Shown here: one piece after another, positions 530-14,227 of the stretch | How positions within the stretch are numbered: the first letter of the stretch is position 1 | How the letters are laid out: each line of letters begins with the position of its first letter | Source of the DNA: Pseudomonadota bacterium | GTDB lineage: Bacteria > Bdellovibrionota_B > Oligoflexia > Oligoflexales > RGVZ01 | Reading direction: 5' to 3' | NCBI GenBank assembly: GCA_041178085.1 | Contig: JBEGVZ010000129.1 | Span: 1 to 14,227, forward strand | DNA: 14,227 nt | Notes under the pieces: generated by a model | Database searches by the model: none | The model's input: the letters and a program-made list of their open reading frames with translations, nothing else | What the model was told of the DNA's origin: nothing | Translations under genes and position numbers: made by a program

Positions 530-1816
530 CTATCCTTTTTGCGGGAGCAGGGCTGGCAAGTTGGTCGCTCCCGGGCAGAAGTGGTTCTCAAAGCGTTGGT
601 CCAGTAAACGGCACGGACTTGCACGAAGCTGTGGCGGGCCATAGGGGGACGTCGCCTCGTAAGCAAAACAAAACCCCGCCGAGCGGTGAACAATAAAGAC
701 ACTGTGATCGTATGTGGTGAGAATGCATCCGGGGCGGGCTGACTCATCGGTGCGAATCAGACCTTTCTTTGCAAGAATGCCAGCCCAGCACTCCACGCAC
801 ATGTCTTCAATGAAGACGGCAGATTCAAAAGGCTGGGTTGACGATCGGGTCTGGTCAGCCATTGTCTCGTCGGTGCAATGATCTACCCAAAGCTGCACCT
901 TGCCGCACTGGCTGGCCGTGCAGTCCTCATGCTTCATGTTGATCAGGAGCCCACCCGGATTTAGCGCGAGTTCGGCGATTTTTGTATTCTTGTTGGCAGC
1001 GACGAATTCGCGGGCCTCTTTGCCGCACCGTGGTTCATCGGCAAGGCGCGCGAACATCACGTCTTCCAGCTGCAGGTCACCAAGAAGGTCGCCGGCCACG
1101 GCCTGCGCAGTGCCATGACAGTTGGGCGGCCCGTAGGTAACGTGGGCATACGACTGCAATCCGCTCAATTCAATGACGAACGGCTCGTTCCACGCAAGGT
1201 TCTGGTTTTTCGGGTCCTTGATCCTGTGGATCTTCTTCACGCCATCGTGGCATATAACCCGCGTCTTGCGCGGCTTCGTGCGCGCACTGATAGAGTTGCT
1301 TGAAGCGGATGGACATTCAGCCTCGACGAAACACCCCTCTGGCGTCATTCGCACCAAGTCGGTGCATTTGGGGTCCTGGAATTCAGAGGTTTCCGATGCA
1401 ATCATCTGTCGCGTAGCGTCACTGCCGCGTTTCTTGCAGAAGTCGCGCATCCGGGCACCGAGTCGCGCCATTACACCGTTGGTAAGGCCTTCCAGGCACT
1501 TTACCTTTTCGGCGCCGAGGGCAGGGTAATCGGTAGGCCAGTTGTTTTCGATCCGCGTCTGAACAGCATTCATCCAGCGGCGTGCCAGGGCTGGATCGTT
1601 GATGCATTTGCCAAGTCCCTTTGCCTCATCCGTGACTTCGGCGGTCGTGGCCGTGTAATCATCCCGCCGGCAGGCGTCATCCAGGGCTTTCGATGTCTCG
1701 ATGGACCATAGGTCAGCGACACTGAGGGAAGGTCCAGCTGTGCGGCAACCCCACATGGAAAGCAGGGTCGCCGCAAGCAGGTAAGAACAGATCTGGTGCC
1801 GGTCAGTAAGACGCAT
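530..1816 (-). CDS. Hypothetical Cys-rich lipoprotein, possibly with a papain/NlpC-P60-like Cys-His domain
   Basis: 428-aa ORF with a hydrophobic signal ending in a lipobox-like LSMWG|C (Cys24). 21 Cys by my count. GPPNCHGTA and later [13 protein letters not shown]...YEATSPYGP segments. The start overlaps the ald stop by 14 nt. Confidence 0.7.
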
Positions 1817-2903
1817 GCGGGATATTGAGCGCGTCTGCCACTGCCTTGTGCGTCAACTTGCCGTTGAAGCTGTTGAGGCCCTTGCGCAGCGGCTCGGATT
1901 CATCGAGGGCGCGGGCAAGGCCTTTGTTGGCCAGATCCAGCGCGTACTTGATGGTGACATTGGTCAGTGCGTAGGTGGAGGTCTTCGGCACGTCGCCCGG
2001 GATGTTGGTGACGCCGTAGTGAAGTACACCTTCTTCCTTGAACACCGGATCATCGTGGGTCGTCGGACGGATCGTCTCGACACACCCGCCTTGGTCAATT
2101 GCCACGTCGACAATTGCAGAGTCGGGTTCCATGGTGCGAACCATGTCGCTGCTTACCAGGCACGGGGCCTTGGCTCCAGTGATCAGGACGGCGCCGACCA
2201 GAAGATCTGACTCGCGCACGGCGCGTGCCAGGTTTTCCGGATTCGACATCAAAGTCTGGATGTTGTTGCCGAAGATATCGTCCAGGTACGCAAGGCGTGC
2301 CGGGTTGACGTCAAGAATCGTCACTTGTGCGCCAAGGCCGATCGCCATTTTCGCCGAGTTGATACCGACGACGCCACCGCCGATGATCGCAACGCGACCA
2401 CGTGCAACGCCGGGAACTCCGCCAAGAAGCAGCCCCTTGCCGCCATTATGTTTTTGCAGGCATTGCGCGCCGACTTGGACCGCCATGCGACCAGCAACTT
2501 CACTCATCGGGGTCAACAGCGGCAACGAGCCGTTGGCCAGTTCGATCGTCTCGTAAGCGATCGCAGTGACTTTGCGATCAAGCAGGGCTTTGGCCAGTTC
2601 AGGAACAGCAGCCAGGTGGAGGTAAGTATAAAGAATCTGACCAGCACGCATCCGGGAATATTCTTCCGGGATCGGCTCCTTCACCTTCATGATCATCTCG
2701 GCTTCGTCCCAGACCTGCTTGGCGCTGTTGACGATCGTGGCTCCGGCTGTGACGTAGCGCGCATCCGGGATGCCTGCGCCAAGGCCAGCGCCTTTTTCGA
2801 TCATGACCTTGTGGCCATTCGCTACCAGCACTTCAACACCGCCCGGAACGACGGCGACACGATTTTCGCGATTTTTGATTTCCTTTGGGATCCCGATCAG
2901 CAT
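1803..2903 (-). CDS. ald: Alanine dehydrogenase
   Basis: [17 protein letters not shown] start, [28 protein letters not shown], GxGGGVVG Rossmann motif, [33 protein letters not shown] upstream. Confidence 0.97.
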
Positions 2904-2936
2904 GGAATTTGGTCCTTAAACTGTGTGGTCTGAGGA

Positions 2937-3749
2937 CTATAGCACCACAGGAACCTCTACGCTAAGGCCATCGAATGCAAGGCGGACGTTGCCGGGCAGG
3001 GTGCGGGATACGGAGTGGTAGTCAATCTCATGACCCATATGGGTTATAACACCCTGTTTTGCTTCGATTTTTTTGATCAATTCGAGGGTCTCTGGCAGGC
3101 TGCTATGGGTCGGATGGCTGCTCATCCGCAGTCCGCTGGCGATCAGCGTGTGGACTTTTCCCCGCCAACGGTTGACCAGTTCTTCCGGCAGGGACTTGAA
3201 GTCCGTTGCATAAACCAGTCCGCCAACTTTGAACACGGTGACGTCCTGGTTGCCATGACTGACCGTCGCCGGTTCTATTTCGATGCCAAAAACCGTGAAC
3301 GTCTTGCCCGGTGTGATCTCATGCAACACGAGTTGCGGCCTGGTGCCGTGGTACTCCGTGTCACTGAACGCATACGAGAAACGATTCTTGATGTCTTGCA
3401 GGTGAGTCGCCGTTGCGTGGACGGAAAGCGGGTGACGCGCACGAAAAAACAGCGCACGCAGGTCATCAAACCCGTGACAATGATCCGAGTGGGTGTGCGT
3501 GTAGATCACGTGCTCAAGGTGCCGGGTTTTTTGGCGCAGCATCTGGATGCGGAATTCCGGAGCGGTGTCGAAGACAGCGTGCTGTTCCTGGTCCGTGCCA
3601 GCGCCACTCGTCAGCAGGAGAGACGCACGGGTGCGCTGGTTGAAGGGATCGCCGCCGGTGCATACTTCGCAGTCGCACCCGATCACCGGCACGCCGGGTG
3701 AACTTCCCGATCCCAGGATCGTCGCCTTAATGGTTTGTGGACTTGTCAC
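2937..3749 (-). CDS. Metallo-beta-lactamase-fold hydrolase, PhnP/YycJ/LipB-like phosphodiesterase
   Basis: LGSGSSPGVPVIGCDCEVC, RTRASLL, THTHSDHCHG (HxHxDH), YATD, THS and ITHMGH motifs. The start is placed at GTG 3749 (AAGGA 8 nt upstream) rather than the track's 3890, which lies deep inside recQ. It overlaps the recQ end by 23 nt. Confidence 0.9.
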   Translation of the reverse strand: MTSPQTIKATILGSGSSPGVPVIGCDCEVCTGGDPFNQRTRASLLLTSGAGTDQEQHAVFDTAPEFRIQMLRQKTRHLEHVIYTHTHSDHCHGFDDLRALFFRARHPLSVHATATHLQDIKNRFSYAFSDTEYHGTRPQLVLHEITPGKTFTVFGIEIEPATVSHGNQDVTVFKVGGLVYATDFKSLPEELVNRWRGKVHTLIASGLRMSSHPTHSSLPETLELIKKIEAKQGVITHMGHEIDYHSVSRTLPGNVRLAFDGLSVEVPVVL

Positions 3750-5223
3750 GCGATGGATCCTTGAAGTAGTTGCGCAACATGGCCAGGCCACGCGAAGTTG
3801 AAGACGCGGCCAGACGGGCAAAAAGGCGCATTTGTTCGAGTTTCCACAGGGCTTCCTGGCGCCGGTACTCGTACTGTCGCCACCATGCACCAGAATCCTC
3901 GATGCGGTTGCCAGCAGTGAGTATCAGGTCTGACTCCATGGATGATGGGTCCAGCACTTCGGACTGCCGGAAAAGGTTTTCCCGCAGCGCATAATCCAGC
4001 GCCGCCTCTGCATCGCGTGATTTTGTTCCTTTGGCGGCCAGCTGCTTGAGCAGCCAGTAGCGGTTTTTGCCGTATTGATCCTGACCTTCCAGTTGCCCTG
4101 CGATGAACTCACACACCTTGCGAGTCATGTTCACTTCTGGATATTGGCGGTCAATCAGGAACTTGCGCGTGTGATAGTCGCGCAGATGGAAGAACATGGT
4201 GCAGCGAGCTGGTTTTCCGTCGCGTCCTGCGCGACCAGTCTCCTGCACATATTGTTCAATGTTTTGTGGCATCCCGGCGTGGATCACGTGCCGGATGTCC
4301 GCCTTGTCTATGCCCAGGCCAAATGCACTGGTGGCGACCATGATCCCGGTATTTCCCGAAAGGAAAGCGCGCTGGCTGGCCTGGCGTGAACCTGGTTCCA
4401 TGCCTGCGTGGTAGATGCCTGCGTGCAAGTTGCGTGACCGCAAATCACGCCAGATCGTGTTGGCATCTTTGCGTGTCGGAGCGTAGATGAGGGTCGTCTC
4501 CGGTGAAATGGCGTTAGCAATCAATGCGGGAAGATCCTGGACGGAAGTAGCCTGGGTCACTGACGTAGACAGGTTGTCGCGGACCAGCTCGCTTACGACC
4601 AGGGCCGGGTCGCGGAGTTTCAGGTTGGCGATCATGTCAGCCTTGATGCCCGGTGTAGCAGTGGCTGTAAGCGCCAGGCGCACGGCGCCGGGGAAAGAAT
4701 CCAGGAAAGTTCCAATGTGGCGGTACTCGGGCCTGAAGTTGAACCCCCACTGGCTCGTGCAGTGGGCTTCGTCAATTGCCACCAGGGTGATCTTCCGCAT
4801 TCCGGCGAGGCGTTCGCGGAAGGTCAGGCTCGATAGACGCTCCGGAGAAACAAAAGCAACGACGGCCTCGCCACTGGCAAGCGATTGCCACAGTCCGTCG
4901 CGGTCATCGCGCGTTTGCAGGCTGTCAAAAGACGCAACCGGAATCCCCTTGGCGCCGAGCTTTTCTGCCTGGTCGCGCATGAGGGCTATGAGCGGGGAGA
5001 CAACCAGGACGAGGCTTCTATTCATCGGTGGCTTTGCCATTTCCATCGCCGCAGGCACGCCGTAGCAAAGGGTTTTTCCGCTGCCAGTTGGCGAGACGGC
5101 AAGGCAATCACGGCCGGCATCAATGGCGGCAAGGACTTCCCTCTGGAAGTCGTGCAGGGCGTCGAACCCGAAAATGGTTCGCGCGGCCTGCCCGTGATGG
5201 TCGGTGTCCAGAGAAGTGTGCAT
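3727..5223 (-). CDS. recQ: RecQ-family ATP-dependent DNA helicase, short form (helicase core, degenerate RQC, no HRDC)
   Basis: SPTGSGKT, VSPLIALMRDQ, SPERL, IDEAHCTSQWGFNFRPEY (DEAH plus aromatic-rich loop), ALTATA, YHAGM, VATSAFGLGIDKADIR and QETGRAGRDG motifs. Confidence 0.92.
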   Translation of the reverse strand: MHTSLDTDHHGQAARTIFGFDALHDFQREVLAAIDAGRDCLAVSPTGSGKTLCYGVPAAMEMAKPPMNRSLVLVVSPLIALMRDQAEKLGAKGIPVASFDSLQTRDDRDGLWQSLASGEAVVAFVSPERLSSLTFRERLAGMRKITLVAIDEAHCTSQWGFNFRPEYRHIGTFLDSFPGAVRLALTATATPGIKADMIANLKLRDPALVVSELVRDNLSTSVTQATSVQDLPALIANAISPETTLIYAPTRKDANTIWRDLRSRNLHAGIYHAGMEPGSRQASQRAFLSGNTGIMVATSAFGLGIDKADIRHVIHAGMPQNIEQYVQETGRAGRDGKPARCTMFFHLRDYHTRKFLIDRQYPEVNMTRKVCEFIAGQLEGQDQYGKNRYWLLKQLAAKGTKSRDAEAALDYALRENLFRQSEVLDPSSMESDLILTAGNRIEDSGAWWRQYEYRRQEALWKLEQMRLFARLAASSTSRGLAMLRNYFKDPSRDKSTNH

Positions 5224-5288
5224 GCTGACTCAGGTTTTACGCGATTTGCCAGTCGCACGGAAAGGGGTTTCTTGGGTATGATCATCAG

Positions 5289-6518
5289 ATGGATTTTGTC
5301 GTCCAAAAATACGGGGGAACCTCGGTCGGCTCCCTGGAACGGATCAACCGGGTCGCCGACCACGTCGCTGCCACCCGGGCCGGTGGCGTCAACGTCGTCG
5401 TTGTGGTCAGCGCCATGGGCGAACAGACCGACGACCTGATTGACATGGCCCGCGCCTTGAGCAAGGACCCGCCGCGCAGGGAACTTGACATGCTGCTCAC
5501 CGCGGGTGAGCGGATCACGATGGCGTTGCTGAGCATCGCCTTGCACGAACGGGGCTTGAAGTCGGTTTCTTTGACAGGTTCCCAGAGCGGCATCCTCACC
5601 GATGAGACCCACGGCAATGCGCGCATCGAAAAAATCCTGGGCGACCGGATACGGACAGGCCTTCAGGAAAATTCCATTGTGATCGTGGCGGGATTTCAGG
5701 GAGTCAGTCCCAAGACCAAGGAAATCACCACGCTTGGGCGTGGGGGGTCCGACTTGAGTGCGGTTGCACTGGCCTCTGTGCTGGGCGCACAGCGGTGTGA
5801 ACTGTACAAGGACGTCGATGGCGTCTTCACGGCCGATCCTCGTGTCGTCCCTGGAGCCCGCAAGATTGATTCATTGCCCTGGTATGCGATGTCGGAACTG
5901 GCATGGGCCGGAGCCGGCGTATTGCATGCGCGGGCAGCGCACGTCGCCGCCAGGTTTGGCCTGGTGGCAGAGATTCGTTCCAGCTTCAAGCCGCAGCTTG
6001 GCGGCACTTTGATAGAACCCGCGACGGGATTGGATGTTGACATGAGCACGAGCAAGCACGGGATGGAACAGGCGACTCTGCATGCGATCGCGAGCAAGTC
6101 AAAGATGTGTCTGCTTGAAATTGAGACCGGTGCGGGTGACGCTGTGAAGCTGAACCCTGCTGTGCTCGAGTTCCTGTGGGCGAACGGCGAGGCCCCCGCA
6201 GTCAACCAGCAGGTAGGCAGCGTCACGCGCCTCGTGGTCCCGGAAAACCTTGCAGCAGCGATCAAAGACGGACTCGCTGGCGGGCGCTTCGCGGCTGTTC
6301 GCGCCAAGTCAGTGAAGCTTTCAATGGCCGGAATGTCCGCTGTGACGGTGGTGGGCAACGGCTTCCTGCAGAACCCTGAAACTGTTGCGCAGTTGCTTTC
6401 TGCGGCATCGACCGCAGGTGAAGTCATGCTCTGGGATGTCCGCAATCACGCGTTGATGGTCGGCGTGAAGGATGCCGAAGCTCCAAAAGTTGTCCAGGCT
6501 TTGCACGCTCTTTTTTAG
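5289..6518 (+). CDS. lysC: Aspartate kinase (monofunctional, LysC/Ask type) with divergent C-terminal ACT region
   Basis: VQKYGGTSVG, VVVSAMG, DMLLTAGE, VAGFQG, TTLGRGGSDLSA and DVDGVFTADPR motifs; 409 aa. Confidence 0.95.
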   Translation: MDFVVQKYGGTSVGSLERINRVADHVAATRAGGVNVVVVVSAMGEQTDDLIDMARALSKDPPRRELDMLLTAGERITMALLSIALHERGLKSVSLTGSQSGILTDETHGNARIEKILGDRIRTGLQENSIVIVAGFQGVSPKTKEITTLGRGGSDLSAVALASVLGAQRCELYKDVDGVFTADPRVVPGARKIDSLPWYAMSELAWAGAGVLHARAAHVAARFGLVAEIRSSFKPQLGGTLIEPATGLDVDMSTSKHGMEQATLHAIASKSKMCLLEIETGAGDAVKLNPAVLEFLWANGEAPAVNQQVGSVTRLVVPENLAAAIKDGLAGGRFAAVRAKSVKLSMAGMSAVTVVGNGFLQNPETVAQLLSAASTAGEVMLWDVRNHALMVGVKDAEAPKVVQALHALF

Positions 6519-7574: not shown

Positions 7575-7739
7575 AAAACTGCCCCCACCCGTTGTGCTTG
7601 AAAGCGGAATTGTTCTTGGAATATCGGGCGCTTCGATGTCAACCGGGTAGTTCGGTGCGTCAAGCTACGGGAAAAGCGTCTTTAGTCAATGATTACACAA
7701 GATACGTTGCCCCCATCACCAGCCGATGGGGGCAGTTTT
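7575..7739. repeat. 165-bp intergenic element bounded by perfect 13-bp inverted repeats (REP/MITE-like)
   Basis: AAAACTGCCCCCA (7575-7587) is the exact reverse complement of TGGGGGCAGTTTT (7727-7739). A third copy of the core, TGCCCCCA, is at 7708-7715. Confidence 0.55.
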
Positions 7740-7741
7740 AT
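7708..7741 (+). terminator. Rho-independent terminator-like hairpin between convergent genes
   Basis: 10-bp stem TGCCCCCATC / GATGGGGGCA with a 7-nt loop, followed by GTTTTAT on the plus strand. On the minus strand it lies directly after the stop codon of the beta-barrel gene. Confidence 0.65.
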
Positions 7742-8634
7742 AGCGACATTCCAAGGCTGAACCCCACCGTCGAAGCAAAGGCATCGTGGATGCGGGTTTG
7801 ACCCAGCCCCACGCCAATGTGCCACCGCGAAAGGTTCAAAATGGCCTGCACGTTGCCGCGTACGGCCAGTCCGAATCCGTTGTTTAGTTTGTTCTGGTAC
7901 CCTGACTCAGCATTAAGGTCCCGGTCCCCGATAACTCCCGCCACGTAACCAAAGCCCCCCGCAACTTCGGGGCGTATCGAAACTGTGCTGTCACTGAAGA
8001 GTGTATAGCCGATCCCAGCAACACCACCGACGATGTTTGCCGCCAATGGTTGAACATCCACGCCCAATGACTCTTGTCCCAGGTAATCACGGCTGACAAT
8101 TGAACGCGCTACTTCGCCCTGCATGCTGGAAAAAAATCCACGACTGACCAGTTCGATGTCCATCCATGAACGGATGATCCAGGCACCTGAGACTTCGTAA
8201 CCGCTTGCTCCCGGACCAATGGCATAGCTGGCAGAGCCAAGAGAGGCTTCCACCATGTTGTCGCCCTTGTCTTTTTGAGGCGTGTACATTTGTTCGATGC
8301 TGAGCGGGTCGGTGACGTTAGTTAGAAGTGCCACGCGTTCACTGCCCCCGATGCGTGCGTAAGCCGTCTCGATCTGGACAACCCTGCGGGAGCCCGACAT
8401 GCGTTGGACCTTGCCCCATGCGACAAGACGATCGTTGCTTCCAAACAATCCAACCCGGTCGCCTGTGATTAATTCACGGGAGTTGACGATGCACTGTTTT
8501 TTGTCGCTGCTGCAACTCTCAACCTTCGCGGCAAATGCGCCAGAAGTCGATAAAGTGCTGGCGGTCATTGCGCAAGCAAGCAGCAAGCGACGTGATAATC
8601 TTCGATTTCTTTGGCCTGTCTTTGTTCCCAGCAT
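7738..8634 (-). CDS. Putative outer-membrane protein: small N-terminal beta domain plus C-terminal ~8-strand beta-barrel
   Basis: ATG 8634 has GGAG 8 nt upstream (better than the track start at 8664). The signal peptide ends AFA|A. The C-terminal half has alternating Gly/aromatic amphipathic strands (YEVSGAW, GVAGIGY, PEVAGGFGY, WHIGVGL, TVGFSLG). Confidence 0.65.
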   Translation of the reverse strand: MLGTKTGQRNRRLSRRLLLACAMTASTLSTSGAFAAKVESCSSDKKQCIVNSRELITGDRVGLFGSNDRLVAWGKVQRMSGSRRVVQIETAYARIGGSERVALLTNVTDPLSIEQMYTPQKDKGDNMVEASLGSASYAIGPGASGYEVSGAWIIRSWMDIELVSRGFFSSMQGEVARSIVSRDYLGQESLGVDVQPLAANIVGGVAGIGYTLFSDSTVSIRPEVAGGFGYVAGVIGDRDLNAESGYQNKLNNGFGLAVRGNVQAILNLSRWHIGVGLGQTRIHDAFASTVGFSLGMSL

Positions 8635-8763
8635 GGCTGAAACTCCACAAAAAACCGGGTCCACCCGGGCTTCTGATGCAAGGATCAGGCCGCGACTTCA
8701 GGGTTATTTTTTATTGAAATTCAGCGGGTTACGGGCGAGTTTTAAATGGCGACTGTCAATGGT

Positions 8764-8820: not shown

Positions 8821-9267
8821 ATGCTGTTGGAACACGAATCTTCCCTTGCTGAAAGCCAGGAAACAACAGAACCGGTGCGATCAGGTCGCACGAAAATCAT
8901 TCGCATCGCGGCTGTGGTTCTAGTGGTTGGGGTGGGAGCGGCGATTGCCTCGCGTTATTTTTCTCTCAGTTCCCAGGACTCATCAAATCCTGGCGAACCC
9001 GGTGATGAGTTTCTCGTGGACAGTTTCGAAGAAGGGATTTTCCGGCAACTTGAGCAGGGGGACTATCCGCAGATCATCGTCGAAGACCAGGAAGGCAAGA
9101 TGAATGCCTATGGTTGTTCCGATGGATGCCCGCCTCTTGACCAGGACCCTGAAGCTTACTTGAATCGCAGTGTCCGCGTGTACCTGCGTAACCAGACCAC
9201 ACCGGGGAATGAGGATGCCCCGGAAAACGGGGTCAAGGTTGTGGTTCGCGTGGAGTTGTTGCCCTGA
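8821..9267 (+). CDS. Hypothetical single-pass membrane protein with an acidic periplasmic domain
   Basis: One hydrophobic segment (IIRIAAVVLVVGVGAAIA) preceded by basic residues, then an acidic domain with EQGDY and CxxxC. The exact start is ambiguous (TTG 8818, ATG 8821 or TTG 8827 after GGAG 8814-8817). Confidence 0.7.
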   Translation: MLLEHESSLAESQETTEPVRSGRTKIIRIAAVVLVVGVGAAIASRYFSLSSQDSSNPGEPGDEFLVDSFEEGIFRQLEQGDYPQIIVEDQEGKMNAYGCSDGCPPLDQDPEAYLNRSVRVYLRNQTTPGNEDAPENGVKVVVRVELLP

Positions 9268-9742
9268 TCACTTCGTCCAGCTCGACGGCCTTCACTTCCA
9301 ATGCGGCAACCCCCTGATAAACTTGCCATGCTTTTAACCAGGCAAGGCGCTGCCGCTCGACTGGCATCCGGCCGAGCCATTCCGGCAGGGTAGCAAACCG
9401 GATGGCATTACCCGCGGAGGGTGTGGCGGCCTGCAAGGCGCTTGCCGGGATCAGTCGGTAAGGTGCGCGCGGTGGCTGGACGACATAAAGTGTGGCTGGC
9501 CCTTCCGGCAGCTGAACCACTTCCTGGAAACTTTGTGACACATCGTAACCCGCCTTCACCAGGCTGACGCCAAGACGTCCTGCAATGGACTCCATGATTT
9601 GCGGGATCACTGGTTGGAGTGGCGTGACCTCAAGGCGCAATCCTGCCCAAGGACCCGGATCAGACGGAAAAAGCCATAATCCTGAACCGGAATCCAGCGG
9701 AACAAGCACAACGGCATGAGGTGTCGGGCAATGAATGATCAT
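9233..9742 (-). CDS. Hypothetical protein (169 aa) immediately downstream of mglA, possibly a degenerate Nudix fold
   Basis: ATG 9742 lies 7 nt after the mglA stop, with AGGA overlapping that stop (TAGGAAAACCATG). The track's extra 31 aa overlap mglA and are unlikely. The 3' end overlaps the convergent plus-strand gene by 35 nt. Confidence 0.65.
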   Translation of the reverse strand: MIIHCPTPHAVVLVPLDSGSGLWLFPSDPGPWAGLRLEVTPLQPVIPQIMESIAGRLGVSLVKAGYDVSQSFQEVVQLPEGPATLYVVQPPRAPYRLIPASALQAATPSAGNAIRFATLPEWLGRMPVERQRLAWLKAWQVYQGVAALEVKAVELDEVIRATTPREPQP

Positions 9743-9749
9743 GGTTTTC

Positions 9750-10331
9750 CTAGACGGAAAGTGTGCTGACGATTTGTTTGGCCACCGATTGCAAGGTTTC
9801 GAGCGTGCCAATGGAGCGGGTGGCAATCGCCTCATGATCGGGAAAACCAGCCGGGTTTAGTTCCTCCCGCAGGATATCAACTGGAACCAGCTGCTCAAGA
9901 TCCCGCTTGTTGTACTGGATGACGCGCGGCAGGTCTGTGAAGTTGTAGCCATGGTCTGTAAGCAGGTGTCTTGCCTGTGTGAGTGAATCCAGATTGTCAG
10001 CCATGGATTCCATCCGGGAATCCGCCACAAACACGAAAGCATCCAAGCCTTTCAATATGGTGTGGGTCAGCGTTTCGTAAAGTGGGTGAGCCGGTATCGT
10101 ATAAAGATGGAGCTTCACGTGGTGATTTTTGACTGTCCCCAGACTTACCGGAAGAAAGTCAAAGAAGGGGGTAGGCCCGGTGGCTCCGGACATATCCATC
10201 ATCCCGCTTTTGAGTTCACTGGATGTACTGGAATAAATCGATTTCAAGTTCAGCGTCTTGCCTGAACCCCCGGGGCCAAAATAGACCACTTTGCAGTGGA
10301 TCTCGCGTGTCTCAAAGTTGGTGAAAGCCAT
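9750..10331 (-). CDS. mglA: MglA-family small Ras-like GTPase with substituted catalytic residues
   Basis: MAFTNFETREIHCKVVYFGPGGSGKT, FFDFLP, LYTIP, FVADS and QYNKRDL motifs are colinear with M. xanthus MglA ([27 protein letters not shown]..., recalled from memory). Confidence 0.92.
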   Translation of the reverse strand: MAFTNFETREIHCKVVYFGPGGSGKTLNLKSIYSSTSSELKSGMMDMSGATGPTPFFDFLPVSLGTVKNHHVKLHLYTIPAHPLYETLTHTILKGLDAFVFVADSRMESMADNLDSLTQARHLLTDHGYNFTDLPRVIQYNKRDLEQLVPVDILREELNPAGFPDHEAIATRSIGTLETLQSVAKQIVSTLSV

Positions 10332-10368
10332 GCTGTCCCGGGACGTGTTTGATTGTCAGAAGCGTCGC

Positions 10369-12084
10369 TTAGTCGACATTCTTGATACTGACATTTTCCA
10401 CTTTTCCGGCAAAAACATCCAGAAAGTCCCGCGTCGTCTGGTGATTGATGGCAGCCTGACGCATGGATTCGTGGCGGGCGCGGGTTTCGCGCTCGGTCTT
10501 TTGCGCAAGGGACTCCTGTGGAGTGACCTCAGAAGCTGTTCCGGACTTTTCAATCGCGATACGCCCCTTGAAGCCAAACAACTCCGCAAAAGCTTGCTGC
10601 AGCTTCTGTTGCTCGTCCTTTTGAAGCAGGCAGCGGGCGAATGAAGTTTCCGCAACCTGCAGCGAGATCAAGTCGGGCCCGTAATGGACCGGATTGGCGT
10701 CCTCAAGTTTGCCGGCCTGGAGCGGACGGTGTTGGCGCCAGTGGGCAACGAGTTCGCTCCATGTCGCCGGAAATGATGGCGGCAGTGCGCTGGCAGCCGG
10801 AGCCCTTGCTGGAGCGCTTGCTTGCACCGGTGGTGCGGTCAGGGGCTGGGGTGCAGGCCCGGCTGTGACTGCCGGCTTCAAATCGGGTTTCAATTCTGTC
10901 TTTAGCGGCGTGGCACTCGCCTTTGACACTAGCTGATCGAGGTCAGGCAGGCCCGGATCGAGGCACCATTCAAGCGTGTAGTTTTCCAGGATGCAGCGGT
11001 CAAGCGGGCTGCCGTCCAGGTCACTCCGGCAACGGACAAGAGTCCGGAAAATGCGGTTCAAGTCAAAGTCAGCGGCTTTTCGGGCCAGGTCAGCAAGGGT
11101 CGAAACTTCCGAGGAATCAAGGTCCAGCTGCGACGGATCAAGTGAGTCGACGCCAAGGTCGCGGATGACAAAGGCATGTCGCGCAAGCTGGGCAACATCC
11201 TCAACCACGGTCAAAAGATCAGTGCCAGTCTGCTCAACTCGTGCGATCACGCTGGCGCATTCTTTTGCGTCCTTGACCACCATCGCATTCAGGAGCGCCA
11301 TCACCAGTTCGCGAGGTGCCTGGGCGGTCAGACTTTCGCAAAGGGCGGCCGTGACCGTGCCGTTGCCGATGGCAATGGCCTGATCAAGTAGCGTCAGAGC
11401 GTCGCGCATCGATCCGCGGGCTTCGCGGCACACGGGACGCAGGGCGCCTGGCTCAAAAGGAATCGACTCCCGCCGGAGGATCTCCTCCAGGCGCGCAATG
11501 ACTGTTTTAGGCGGAATCTTTTGGAGCAGGAAAACCTGGCAGCGCGACAGGATCGTCTGCGGAATTTTCTGCAGTTCCGTCGTCGCAAACAGGAACACCA
11601 CATGGGCTGGGGGCTCTTCGAGGGTCTTCAACAAGGCGTTGAATGCGCTCTGGGACAGCATGTGGACTTCGTCGATCAGGTAAATCTTGAACTTGGAGCG
11701 CTGGGGCACATAAGCGATCGAATCGCGCAGCAGGCGGACATCATCCACGCTGGTATTGGATGCACCATCGATCTCGAGCACGTCCTCGTGGTTGCCGGCC
11801 GTGATTGCAAGGCAGCTGGCACATTGCCCACATGGGGCGGGGGTGGGGCCATTGTCGCAATTGAGTGCCTTCGCATAAAGACGCGCGGTTGTGGTTTTTC
11901 CGACACCACGCACCCCGGAAAAAATCACGGCCTGGGGCAGACGGGCCATTTTGATGGCATTGGCTAGAGCCGTTGCGGTCGTGTCTTGTCCAACCAGTTC
12001 CGAAAACGTCTGGGGGCGGTACTTGCGGGCAAGAGGCTGATGGGGCGCCTGGGGGCTCGTTTGTTGGATCGATGGATTGGTCAT
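10369..12084 (-). CDS. dnaX: DNA polymerase III subunit gamma/tau
   Basis: LARKYRPQTF, GVRGVGKTT Walker A, LNC...PCGQCASC Zn module, EIDGASN, IDEVHML, NALLKTLEEPP, TILSRCQ, GSMRDALTLLDQ, a Pro/Ala-rich linker and a C-terminal tau domain. Confidence 0.97.
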   Translation of the reverse strand: MTNPSIQQTSPQAPHQPLARKYRPQTFSELVGQDTTATALANAIKMARLPQAVIFSGVRGVGKTTTARLYAKALNCDNGPTPAPCGQCASCLAITAGNHEDVLEIDGASNTSVDDVRLLRDSIAYVPQRSKFKIYLIDEVHMLSQSAFNALLKTLEEPPAHVVFLFATTELQKIPQTILSRCQVFLLQKIPPKTVIARLEEILRRESIPFEPGALRPVCREARGSMRDALTLLDQAIAIGNGTVTAALCESLTAQAPRELVMALLNAMVVKDAKECASVIARVEQTGTDLLTVVEDVAQLARHAFVIRDLGVDSLDPSQLDLDSSEVSTLADLARKAADFDLNRIFRTLVRCRSDLDGSPLDRCILENYTLEWCLDPGLPDLDQLVSKASATPLKTELKPDLKPAVTAGPAPQPLTAPPVQASAPARAPAASALPPSFPATWSELVAHWRQHRPLQAGKLEDANPVHYGPDLISLQVAETSFARCLLQKDEQQKLQQAFAELFGFKGRIAIEKSGTASEVTPQESLAQKTERETRARHESMRQAAINHQTTRDFLDVFAGKVENVSIKNVD

Positions 12085-12592: not shown

Positions 12593-14227
12593 TCAAGACG
12601 CGGTGTTAGCCTGCAAGGGCGCATCCGACTTCTTCCAGCCCTCAAACCACACCACGCACATGGTCGCCAGGAAGGTTGACGACCAGGTTGCGGCAACCAC
12701 ACCGACTGCCATTGCCATGGCAAAGTTCCAGATGCTGCCAGTGGCAAAGAAGATGATGCCGAGCAGTGACAGCAGCGTACACACAGACGTGTTGATGGAT
12801 CGCCCGAGTGTTTCGTTGATGGCGTTGTTGACGTTCTCACGAAGTGGTTTACGGGGGTGCATTTCAAGGTTTTCCCGGATCCGGTCATAGATCACGACCG
12901 TGTCATTGACCGTGTAACCCGCAACCGTCAACAGAGCTGCAATGGACGTCAGGTCGAAGGAACGTTGCGCCAGGACGTAAAATCCAAGGGTCAGGAGGAT
13001 GTCCATCACCATCTTGACGACAGATCCCGGAGCAAACCGAATGTCGAACCTGAGCATGATGTAGAGCACGATCCCGATCAGTGCATAGAGCAGGGACACC
13101 GCTCCTTGGGTGCGCAGCTCCTTGCCGACCTGAGGTCCAACATAGTCTACACGCAAGATTTCTGGCGAGGCCGCGGCCAAGTCTGAAGCAAGGTTGGCCT
13201 TGAACTTGTCGGTCCTTGAGTCAACGGAGATCGTTCTTTCCTTTGCCATGACGTCGCCCGTTGCAGCTTTCTTTTCGTCACGGTCAAAACGGAGCAGGTA
13301 TTGCTGGGAACCGCCTCCGAGAGCCTGGACAGTGACGTCACTGATCCCGGCCTTGGTTGCTGCCTGTTCCAGCTGGGTCGACGTGACCGCCTGGCTGAAC
13401 TTCACCTCCAGCTCGGTTCCGCCGGCGAAATCAACCGCCCAGTTCATGCCTTTCGTTGCAAGTGCGCCCAGTGAGATGAGCACAATCAATATCGGCACGG
13501 CGATCGCCACCGGTGCCTTGCCAAGGAAATTGAATTTGAGTGGCTTGTGCTCCTTGGAAGTAACGGATCCACCCAGCCACAAGCGGGTGTCCTGCTCGGT
13601 TGTGCAGCGTGATACGATCCAGTCAAACATCAGGCGTGAGCAGTAGAGTGAAGTGAAAAGCGATACGAGGAGGCCAAGCAGCAAGGTGATGGCAAAGCCC
13701 CGGATGGGACCTGATGAGTTCGTTTGCAGCAGAACTGTGGCTGCGATCAACGAGGTTGCGTTGGAGTCTACGATCGTCCAGAAAACGCGCTGGAATCCAG
13801 TTTCCAGTGCCCTGCGTCCGGTTTTTCCTTCACGGAGCTCTTGGCGGATGCGCTCGTTGATCAGGACGTTCGCGTCAACGGCCATGCCAAGGGTCAGGAT
13901 GAAGCCTGCGATGCCTGGTAGTGACAACGAGAAGTTGAACATGGCCATCAGTGCGAGCAGAAAGATGCCGTTTAGCAGCAGCGCGAGTGAGGCGATCAAG
14001 CCTGGCCGACGGTAATAAAATATGATGAACGCGAATACAAATATCAGCCCCACAGCCGTTGCCCTGAGGCCCTGACTTGCCAGCTCAGGCCCGAGGCTTG
14101 CACCGACTTGTCGTTCCTCAAGCACCTTGATGGTGGCGGGCAGGGCGCCCGATTTAAGGATGATCGACAGCTGGTTGGCTTCCTCGATGATCTTGTCGTA
14201 GGCAAGGCCGCTGCCCAGGGTGATCTG
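12593..14227 (-). CDS. secDF: Fused protein translocase subunit SecDF (partial; N-terminus outside the window)
   Basis: The frame is open to the window edge (QITLGSG...LSIILKSGALPATIKVLEERQVGASLG). SecD motifs (GMAVDANVLINERIRQE, IVDSNATS) are followed in the same ORF by SecF motifs (VDFAGGT, VGPQVGKEL, GYTVNDTVVIYDRIRE, RSINTS). Confidence 0.96.
   Translation of the reverse strand, partial: QITLGSGLAYDKIIEEANQLSIILKSGALPATIKVLEERQVGASLGPELASQGLRATAVGLIFVFAFIIFYYRRPGLIASLALLLNGIFLLALMAMFNFSLSLPGIAGFILTLGMAVDANVLINERIRQELREGKTGRRALETGFQRVFWTIVDSNATSLIAATVLLQTNSSGPIRGFAITLLLGLLVSLFTSLYCSRLMFDWIVSRCTTEQDTRLWLGGSVTSKEHKPLKFNFLGKAPVAIAVPILIVLISLGALATKGMNWAVDFAGGTELEVKFSQAVTSTQLEQAATKAGISDVTVQALGGGSQQYLLRFDRDEKKAATGDVMAKERTISVDSRTDKFKANLASDLAAASPEILRVDYVGPQVGKELRTQGAVSLLYALIGIVLYIMLRFDIRFAPGSVVKMVMDILLTLGFYVLAQRSFDLTSIAALLTVAGYTVNDTVVIYDRIRENLEMHPRKPLRENVNNAINETLGRSINTSVCTLLSLLGIIFFATGSIWNFAMAMAVGVVAATWSSTFLATMCVVWFEGWKKSDAPLQANTAS

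What the first reader, a model, noticed from the sequence alone, without database searches (positions are those of the whole stretch)
9750..10331. MglA homologue lacking both catalytic residues: candidate GTPase-dead polarity switch
Seen: the protein aligns without gaps to M. xanthus MglA numbering over the first 82 residues (reference recalled from memory). It keeps the P-loop (G19-P-G21-G-S-G-K25-T26), switch I T54, FFD and NKRD. However, TDRTLFFD has become TGPTPFFD (R53->P, L55->P), TVPGQ has become TIPAH (G81->A, Q82->H), and T27 is L. Established: MglA hydrolyses GTP using its intrinsic Arg53 finger and Gln82, positioned by the GAP MglB, and Q82 substitutions lock it in the GTP state. 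Inference: this copy binds nucleotide but hydrolyses poorly, acting as a constitutively on or pseudo-GTPase adaptor. This would be a different route from the position-21 change described for Bdellovibrio bacteriovorus MglA, since G21 is intact here.
Basis: partly seen in the sequence, partly recalled or inferred. Interest (0 to 1): 0.8.

Follow-up and report, generated by a model that had tools for sequence, protein, structure and literature searches.

The report
Class-wide switch-dead MglA pseudo-GTPase
In every sampled member of a whole bacterial class (Oligoflexia), the single copy of the cell-polarity GTPase MglA has lost part or all of the residue pair it needs to split GTP, and its activating partner MglB is not found, yet the gene is strongly conserved, so it likely works as a fixed, non-switching adaptor at the cell pole rather than as an on/off switch.

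Summary
Observation confirmed. Window 9750-10331(-) aligns without gaps to M. xanthus MglA, with R53P, L55P, G81A, Q82H and T27L. Contigs from other studies carry the same switch residues. The loss is class-wide: none of 90 Oligoflexia copies has both Arg53 and Gln82, and none has Gly81, against 68 of 68 myxobacterial-type copies. The P-loop is kept, NKxD too in Oligoflexales, and selection is purifying (median dN/dS 0.054). The gene was found in 106 of 116 genomes, with no second full copy; mglB in 0 of 116. Gly21 is intact in only 1 of 70 Oligoflexales copies, so the clade lost it too. Gly81 is also gone, so 'GTP-locked on' is unproven. Best reading: a nucleotide-binding, hydrolysis-dead, non-switching adaptor, likely acting with a REC-TPR protein at the sgmX/bd2492 locus and type IV pili. 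No biochemistry exists and the partner link is indirect. Not found in print in my searches.

The parts
9750..10331 (-). mglA*: 193-aa MglA orthologue lacking Arg53, Gly81 and Gln82 (pseudo-GTPase candidate)
   Evidence: gapless alignment to M. xanthus MglA; AlphaFold2 model pLDDT 82; best match 6izw_A, TM 0.90
10254..10277 (-). P-loop G19-P-G21-G-S-G24-K25-T26 (kept; G21 is variable in the clade)
10167..10175 (-). switch I codons 53-55: P53 (was the Arg finger), T54, P55
10086..10091 (-). switch II codons 81-82: A81 (was Gly), H82 (was the catalytic Gln)
9900..9911 (-). G4 guanine-specificity motif N141-K-R-D144 (kept)
9233..9742 (-). conserved downstream gene, 169 aa, 7 bp after the mglA* stop; Nudix-like fold without a Nudix box; found only in Oligoflexales
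   Evidence: (80 of 86 order genomes, 0 of 30 in the other order)
10332..10368 (-). 37-bp spacer between dnaX and mglA*, where myxobacterial loci carry recR-mglB
10369..12084 (-). dnaX (DNA polymerase III gamma/tau), the ancestral synteny anchor of mglBA

Best explanation
This is the only MglA found in an Oligoflexales genome, and it has lost Arg53, Gly81 and Gln82 while keeping its P-loop and NKxD motifs, so it is predicted to bind guanine nucleotide without hydrolysing or switching and likely serves as a fixed polar adaptor. Shown: loss of the catalytic pair or of Gln82 in all 90 sampled copies of the class; no mglB found; purifying selection; switch regions less conserved than the core. Inferred from MglA biochemistry: near-zero GTP hydrolysis and no GDP/GTP-driven switch. 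Inferred more weakly: the effector is the REC-TPR protein encoded upstream of ATPase-tamB-tamA (the sgmX/bd2492 position), and the output is one-pole control of type IV pili. On this reading the lineage gave up pole reversals, lost the GAP MglB and mostly RomR, and kept MglA as a scaffold. It would be a more extreme endpoint of what happened in Bdellovibrio.
For: Catalysis (PMC3199381, passages): Q82A abolishes and R53A strongly reduces hydrolysis, and Thr54 and Gly81 sense the gamma-phosphate. Residues, positions anchored on F57 and T78: in 70 Oligoflexales genomes R53 0, G81 0, Q82 3, G21 1, T54 34, but G19 70, G24 70, K25 69, T/S26 68, N141 70, K142 66, D144 70. In 20 genomes of the second order R53 16, T54 2, G81 0, Q82 0. 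In 119 close homologues R53 1, G81 5, Q82 1, T54 106, K25 119, D144 119. Controls: 68 of 68 myxobacterial-type copies are canonical; among 150 library representatives, 116 of 121 canonical-side proteins have R53+G81+Q82 and 0 of 29 Oligoflexia-side proteins show G81-Q82. Selection: median dN/dS 0.054 over 21 unsaturated pairs; pN is 0.12 in the switches against 0.065 in the core, the reverse of canonical MglA (0.025 against 0.104). GAP: 0 of 116 genomes with a myxobacterial MglB profile or PF03259 (the control rang in 3 of 14). dnaX directly precedes mglA* in 55 of 70 loci, and MglB-like ORFs lie beside 63 of 68 canonical loci. Output: this genome has PilB and a PilT-family ATPase over NCBIfam cut-offs, PilC, and a TPR-ATPase-tamB-tamA run that matches the published sgmX arrangement (PMC3983030 section 14). 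The REC-TPR gene is near full length in 69 of 86 order genomes. Among the 15 without it, mglA* is deleted in place in G032, has lost its P-loop in G039, and was not found in G043 or G060. In the two second-order regions read in full, mglA* ends a same-strand run that starts with pilMNOPQ (L179, L180).
Against: No biochemical test exists. The REC-TPR protein is tied to SgmX/Bd2492 by gene position only: its profile gave only weak, generic hits in four myxobacterial genomes, and I did not find their sgmX loci. Bd2492 itself aligns poorly with SgmX and not with its MglA-binding end (PMC11025332, passages). Eleven order genomes keep mglA* without the REC-TPR gene, two of them single-contig, and family f5 keeps it at dN/dS 0.07-0.10. 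The drop in MglA* score without the TPR gene (median 143.5 bits, n=11, against 196.9, n=54) rests on four families and shrinks to about 143 against 163 in the subset with a DnaX control. SgmX binds only MglA-GTP (PMC7519303, passages), and Thermus MglA binds GTP about 100-fold more weakly than GDP, so a sensor-less MglA* might sit in the GDP form. pilMNOPQ was not found in this assembly, although contig C117 ends where it would lie. In the second order K142 is His in 16 of 20 copies, so even nucleotide binding may be lost there.
Confidence: 0.55

Rival explanations
1. GTP-locked 'always on' MglA, the first reader's version: it behaves like Q82L/A, stays GTP-bound with the beta2 strand in the active register, and permanently activates effectors.
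For: T26, T54 and D58 (Mg ligands) are kept in this protein, and T54 in 106 of 119 close homologues. F57 and F59 stay conserved. The model's best match is the GTPgammaS/MglB-bound structure (TM 0.90, against 0.83-0.86 for M. xanthus GDP forms).
Against: Gly81 is absent in 90 of 90 copies and Thr54 in 36 of 70; switch I has variable length. Model confidence in switch I is only 52-58, so the state match is weak.
Confidence: 0.18
2. Rewired but active GTPase: an unknown non-roadblock GAP, possibly the Nudix-like neighbour, supplies the missing residues in trans, or His/Asn82 positions the water as His does in translation-factor GTPases (recalled).
For: The P-loop and NKxD are nearly invariant. 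Position 82 is often polar: N in 85 of 119 homologues, H in 17 of 70 and 16 of 20 genomes. MglA groups 2-5 lack the Arg (PMC4316618, passages). The neighbour is 7 bp away and conserved.
Against: Groups 2-5 keep GTPGQ, whereas these copies lack Gly81 and Gln82. Residue 82 varies among H, N, S, D and others. The neighbour persists where mglA* is deleted or broken (G032, G039, G043, G060) and was not found in the second order.
Confidence: 0.12
3. Repurposed scaffold unrelated to pili, working with the Nudix-like neighbour or another partner, for example in cell division or growth of these often filamentous cells (morphology recalled).
For: mglA* is kept under purifying selection in family f5 without the REC-TPR gene and in genus g52, where most genomes show only the weaker PilM-like hit (pilMNOPQ missing at its usual place in G109). 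It is tightly linked to dnaX and the neighbour.
Against: Almost all order genomes carry a canonical PilM, mglA* lies beside the pil run in the second order, and erosion follows loss of the TPR gene.
Confidence: 0.1
4. Decaying relic: after mglB was lost, mglA drifts and survives by sitting in the dnaX operon.
For: Long branches; clean loss in G032, a remnant in G039 and a split gene in G020.
Against: Found in 106 of 116 genomes, almost always as an open frame, including where it has moved away from dnaX. Median dN/dS 0.054, and 21 synonymous against 3 non-synonymous differences in a close strain.
Confidence: 0.05

Closest known systems
Myxococcus xanthus / Thermus thermophilus MglA (group 1 MglA family; PDB 6hjh, 6izw, 3t12)
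   Same: Gapless alignment, about 44% identity, same fold (TM 0.90), P-loop, T78, FFDFLP and NKRD, and location behind dnaX.
   Different: Arg53, Gly81 and Gln82 are lost, switches are hypervariable, no MglB was found, and RomR was found in only 1 of 116 genomes with a weak profile.
Bdellovibrio bacteriovorus MglA (Bd3734), orphan MglA with Ser21
   Same: mglB lost from the dnaX region, non-Gly at position 21 (69 of 70 Oligoflexales), TPR-tamB-tamA locus kept (PMC3983030 passages and section 14).
   Different: The paper reports the switch motifs as conserved in Bd3734 and RomR as present and essential; here the catalytic pair and Gly81 are gone and RomR was not found. The Bdellovibrio sequence was not examined here.
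MglA groups 2-5 (Wuichet and Sogaard-Andersen, PMC4316618)
   Same: They lack the intrinsic Arg finger (passages).
   Different: They have Thr in its place, keep GTPGQ and are mostly coupled to MglB; MglA* derives from the group 1 sequence type and lacks Gln, Gly and MglB.
Hydrolysis-deficient small G proteins of eukaryotes (Rnd/RhoH type; recalled, no call)
   Same: Natural substitutions at the G12/A59/Q61-equivalent positions, with regulation by localisation or amount rather than by cycling.
   Different: Unrelated branch; those are shown to be GTP-bound and keep the switch II Gly (recalled), whereas MglA* lacks it and its nucleotide state is unknown.

Membership tests
Group 1 MglA (orthology) | Full-length sequence and fold similarity to M. 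xanthus MglA | tested here: met
   E 1.7e-53, gapless; TM 0.90; Atlas nearest clusters named MglA
Group 1 MglA (orthology) | Located downstream of dnaX (dnaX-recR-mglB-mglA region) | tested here: met
   dnaX ends 37 bp upstream; directly adjacent in 55 of 70 order loci
Group 1 MglA GTPase (functional class) | Intrinsic Arg53 finger, conserved in all group 1 members in PMC4316618 | tested here: not met
   Pro here; Arg in 0 of 70 Oligoflexales and 16 of 20 in the second order
Group 1 MglA GTPase (functional class) | G3 motif TVPGQ with Gly81 and catalytic Gln82 | tested here: not met
   TIPAH here; Gly81 in 0 of 90, Gln82 in 3 of 90
Group 1 MglA GTPase (functional class) | P-loop GxxxxGK[TS] and G4 NKxD | tested here: met
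   kept here; K25 69 of 70, K142 66 of 70, D144 70 of 70
Group 1 MglA GTPase (functional class) | Cognate roadblock GAP MglB | tested here: not met
   0 of 116 genomes by two searches; PF03259 control rang in 3 of 14
Group 1 MglA GTPase (functional class) | RomR partner | tested here: inconclusive
   three-sequence C-terminal profile: one RomR-like hit (G061) and one unrelated hit in 116 genomes, none in G000; low sensitivity. RomX and RomY not tested.
MglA groups 2-5 | GTPGQ motif and coupling to MglB | tested here: not met
Pseudo-GTPase | G-domain fold with catalytic residues absent and maintained by selection | tested here: met
Pseudo-GTPase | Measured absence of GTP hydrolysis; nucleotide binding state | not testable with these tools
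   needs purified protein
SgmX/Bd2492 effector (for the REC-TPR gene, G000:C74:5576-6520) | TPR gene upstream of (ATPase)-tamB-tamA | tested here: met
   against PMC3983030 section 14; TPR matches are below Pfam cut-offs
SgmX/Bd2492 effector (for the REC-TPR gene, G000:C74:5576-6520) | Sequence homology to SgmX or Bd2492 | tested here: inconclusive
   only generic hits in four myxobacterial genomes; their sgmX loci were not located
Nudix hydrolase (for the downstream gene) | Nudix box GX5EX7REUXEEXGU (pattern recalled) | tested here: not met
   0 of 52 aligned members, also for RExxEE; no Pfam Nudix hit; fold Nudix-like only at E about 2e-3

The most novel reading that the evidence does not exclude
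A whole bacterial class turned its Ras-like polarity switch into a true pseudo-GTPase in steps: loss of the GAP and of Gly81/Gln82 at the class root, then separate erosion (Arg53 in Oligoflexales; Thr54 and the NKxD lysine in the second order), and finally deletion where the TPR effector is lost. In Oligoflexales it is paired with a second pseudo-enzyme, a Nudix-fold protein, that may replace nucleotide cycling as its regulator. This would be a bacterial small pseudo-GTPase family that fixes cell polarity without GTP turnover.
Probability: 0.3. Interest if true: 0.8.

Novelty: new variant of a known kind. Interest (0 to 1): 0.62.

Why it matters
The 2014 survey reported Arg53 as conserved in all group 1 MglAs. 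A class-wide, selected loss of the catalytic pair together with the GAP would be a natural experiment on what MglA does apart from switching. It makes an open question from Bdellovibrio testable: whether an orphan MglA needs a nucleotide cycle at all. It also predicts that Oligoflexia have fixed polarity without MglB-driven reversals. Residues still conserved in MglA* (N-terminal strand, F57/F59/P61, H75) point to the effector-binding surface. Automatic annotation calls these proteins MglA or SRP receptor beta, which hides the change.

Tried and rejected
Complex prediction of MglA* with the REC-TPR protein gave no verdict (score 0.01, mark 0.32). No RNA holder was listed for the region, so expression is untested. 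Pfam and NCBIfam gave no family for P0001 or the neighbour. The phylum search added no genomes beyond the class, so Bdellovibrio- and Bacteriovorax-type MglAs were not examined and the tree lacks them; the tree is the quick version with long branches. Motif searches for valS and RomR in the genome printed nothing; valS was then found by Pfam, with no romR-like gene beside it. sgmX loci of four myxobacterial genomes were not located. GYF_2 proteins exist in G000 but are about 200-230 aa stand-alone ORFs, not GltJ-like, so no gliding link is claimed. PF11104 rang in 116 of 116 genomes but also hits a roughly 560-aa protein of the type II secretion cluster, which is the only hit in G000; it is not a clean pilus marker. 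VIA-align comparisons and a second homologue search could not be run because the machines were busy, so the Nudix fold call rests on Foldseek and the Atlas. dN/dS for G000 against congeners is saturated (pS 0.74-0.80, pN 0.13-0.16). Rejected: sequencing error, genome-specific decay, a second canonical mglA, P53/A81/H82 as a conserved signature, and the 'G21-intact route'. Earlier findings of the scan: nothing shown.

Full report
Observation. The ORF at 9750-10331 (-) encodes 193 aa. There is no Arg between residues 10 and 105 and no Gln before 119. Contigs from four runs of four studies were laid on the gene. One spans it whole, and a related strain's contig differs at 24 listed sites in the gene, 21 synonymous and 3 not, none changing residues 53, 55, 81 or 82. 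An AlphaFold2 model (pLDDT 82; 52-58 in switch I) matches MglA structures best (6izw_A, TM 0.90).

Lineage and distribution. The closest titled records are Oligoflexales and Oligoflexus, so the class is Oligoflexia. That the second order (families f17 and f18) is Silvanigrellales-like is recalled from taxonomy and comes from no call. The genome holds one MglA hit (96% complete). Across the class, 106 of 116 genomes have a hit and none has a second full copy: G020 is one gene in two pieces and G088 has a weak partial second hit. The phylum search added no genomes. Of 110 genomes with a hit, I fetched and tallied 90 (70 Oligoflexales, 20 second order).

Residue pattern (positions anchored on F57 and T78 because switch I has indels). 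In the 70 Oligoflexales copies: G19 70, G24 70, K25 69, T/S26 68, N141 70, K142 66, D144 70, but G21 1 (this genome), R53 0, T54 34, G81 0, Q82 3. In the 20 second-order copies: R53 16, T54 2, G81 0, Q82 0, and K142 is His in 16. No copy of the 90 has both R53 and Q82, and P53+A81+H82 occur together only here. In 119 close database homologues: G21 2, R53 1, T54 106, G81 5, Q82 1, K25 119, D144 119. The control is 68 mostly myxobacterial loci (best 80 of at least 595 matches; the scan patterns did not include these residues), and all 68 are canonical. Among the best 150 representatives of the 50% library, 116 of 121 canonical-side proteins have R53, G81 and Q82, while 0 of 29 Oligoflexia-side proteins show G81-Q82, one of them unreadable at that site. 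Five canonical-side proteins show partial losses, so sporadic losses exist elsewhere. A quick tree of 78 rows puts the 23 canonical rows on one side of a branch with support 99. This allows a single origin but does not prove it, since Bdellovibrio-type sequences are missing.

Selection. Over 21 Oligoflexales pairs with dS between 0.05 and 1.2, median dN/dS is 0.054 (range 0.01-0.31; three of the four highest values are cross-family pairs). Pooled pN is 0.12 in the switches and 0.065 in the core; in canonical MglA it is 0.025 and 0.104. G000 against its congeners is saturated at synonymous sites (pS 0.74-0.80, pN 0.13-0.16). Only five second-order pairs qualified, median 0.32, mostly near saturation. 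The protein is maintained, and constraint is lifted specifically from the switches.

Regulators. A profile of 30 myxobacterial MglB-like proteins found 0 of 116 genomes, and so did PF03259, whose control rang in 3 of 14. MglB-like ORFs lie beside 63 of 68 canonical loci, whereas dnaX directly precedes mglA* in 55 of 70 Oligoflexales loci, 37 bp away in this window. A three-sequence RomR C-terminal profile found one RomR-like protein (G061, family f17) and one unrelated hit in 116 genomes, and none in G000; sensitivity is low. RomX and RomY were not tested.

Possible outputs. G000 encodes PilB and a PilT-family ATPase above NCBIfam cut-offs, and PilC. pilMNOPQ was not found, but contig C117 ends just upstream of the TPR gene that follows the pil run in relatives. 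At C74:5576-6520 a 315-aa protein with a receiver-like N-terminus and weak TPR matches precedes an AAA ATPase, tamB and tamA. This is the arrangement published for sgmX in M. xanthus and, without the ATPase, for bd2492, whose product binds Bdellovibrio MglA (PMC3983030, passages and section 14). Its profile gives near full-length matches in 69 of 86 order genomes, weak ones in 2 and none in 15; 28 of 30 second-order genomes have weak matches of unproven orthology. In eight TPR-negative order genomes and G109 the gene is missing from its place before tamB, with G005 as positive control. Among the 15, mglA* is deleted in place in G032, reduced to a P-loop-less remnant in G039, and not found in G043 and G060. 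The other 11 keep it at lower scores (median 143.5 against 196.9 bits; about 143 against 163 in the subset with a DnaX control, where DnaX scores overlap). These are four families, so the data are not independent, and family f5 keeps mglA* at dN/dS 0.07-0.10. Homology of the TPR protein to SgmX or Bd2492 is positional only. In the two f18 regions read in full, mglA* ends a same-strand run beginning with pilMNOPQ, and G109 lacks the pil genes at that place.

Neighbour. A 169-aa gene starts 7 bp after mglA*. It is found in 80 of 86 order genomes and 0 of 30 others. Its model (pLDDT 88) matches Nudix-fold entries weakly (best E 1.6e-3; Atlas TM 0.59), and 0 of 52 members has a Nudix box. It survives where mglA* is lost, so it need not be a partner.

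Mechanism. In Thermus MglA, Q82A abolishes and R53A strongly lowers hydrolysis, Thr54 and Gly81 are the gamma-phosphate sensors, and GTP binds about 100-fold more weakly than GDP (PMC3199381, passages). Loss of R53, Q82 and MglB therefore makes hydrolysis very unlikely (my estimate 0.85). Conserved P-loop and NKxD suggest that guanine nucleotide binding is kept in Oligoflexales (about 0.75). Because G81 is always gone and T54 often, the protein is more likely uncoupled from nucleotide state than GTP-locked. Its role as a fixed polar adaptor for the REC-TPR protein and type IV pili is the weakest step (about 0.5). The rivals are an always-on GTP form (0.18), a rewired GTPase with a trans-acting factor (0.12), a pilus-unrelated scaffold (0.10) and decay (0.05).

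Comparison and novelty. It is an MglA orthologue by sequence, fold and synteny, but fails the defining catalytic features of group 1 (Arg conserved in all members, TVPGQ; PMC4316618, passages) and of groups 2-5 (GTPGQ, MglB). It resembles Bdellovibrio's orphan MglA (Ser21, no mglB), and position 21 is non-Gly in 69 of 70 Oligoflexales, so this extends that route rather than taking a different one. I found no description in seven searches ('MglA' with 'Oligoflexus' gave 0 papers). The library lacks most subscription papers, and I read no supplements; the tables of PMC4316618 could list such sequences. Papers seen: passages only for PMC4316618, PMC9481161, PMC6428892, PMC7668184, PMC3199381, PMC3000849, PMC7519303, PMC6785124, PMC11135422 and PMC11025332; abstract, outline and passages for PMC13408092; passages and section 14 for PMC3983030. 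Verdict: real, class-wide, a new variant of a known kind; interest 0.62.

Noticed in passing
window 9233-9742 (-): Oligoflexales-specific gene with a Nudix-like fold but no Nudix box, 7 bp behind mglA*; a second probable pseudo-enzyme with invariant Q140 and near-invariant G34, R132, G144.
   Followed up: partly
window 7738-8664 (-): 308-aa unannotated protein with a signal-peptide-like start and a beta-barrel-like C-terminus by eye; relatives lie near mglA* in 37 Oligoflexia loci; no Pfam or NCBIfam match.
   Followed up: no
L179:3922-13380 and L180:510-12083: In family f18 mglA* has left dnaX and sits at the end of pilMNOPQ-X-TPR-aroQ-(X)-phosphomannose-isomerase-like; in L181 (G109) the pil genes are missing from that place.
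   Followed up: partly
L266:2506-3108 (G039): mglA* remnant between dnaX and the Nudix-like gene with the P-loop GK gone; G032 (L263) has a clean deletion and G020:C120 a gene split in two frames.
   Followed up: partly
L252:169-1623 (G061, family f17): RomR-like protein (receiver, acidic linker, C-terminal helix) in the family whose MglA* scores closest to canonical within the second order; may mark an early stage of the loss.
   Followed up: partly
G000:C18:25916-27658 (L186): 581-aa PilT-family ATPase with about 215 extra N-terminal residues before the ATPase match.
   Followed up: no
P0131-P0270: Many library representatives are canonical MglA domains with long C-terminal extensions (300-890 aa); 116 of 121 canonical-side proteins keep R53, G81 and Q82.
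   Followed up: no
G000:C3:12396-13001 and C110:68-766: Two small stand-alone GYF_2-domain proteins, not GltJ-like in size.
   Followed up: partly
window 1803-6518 and 12593-14227: Ordinary housekeeping neighbours: alanine dehydrogenase, a metallo-beta-lactamase-fold hydrolase, a RecQ-like helicase and aspartokinase, and a SecDF-like membrane protein (by eye).
   Followed up: no
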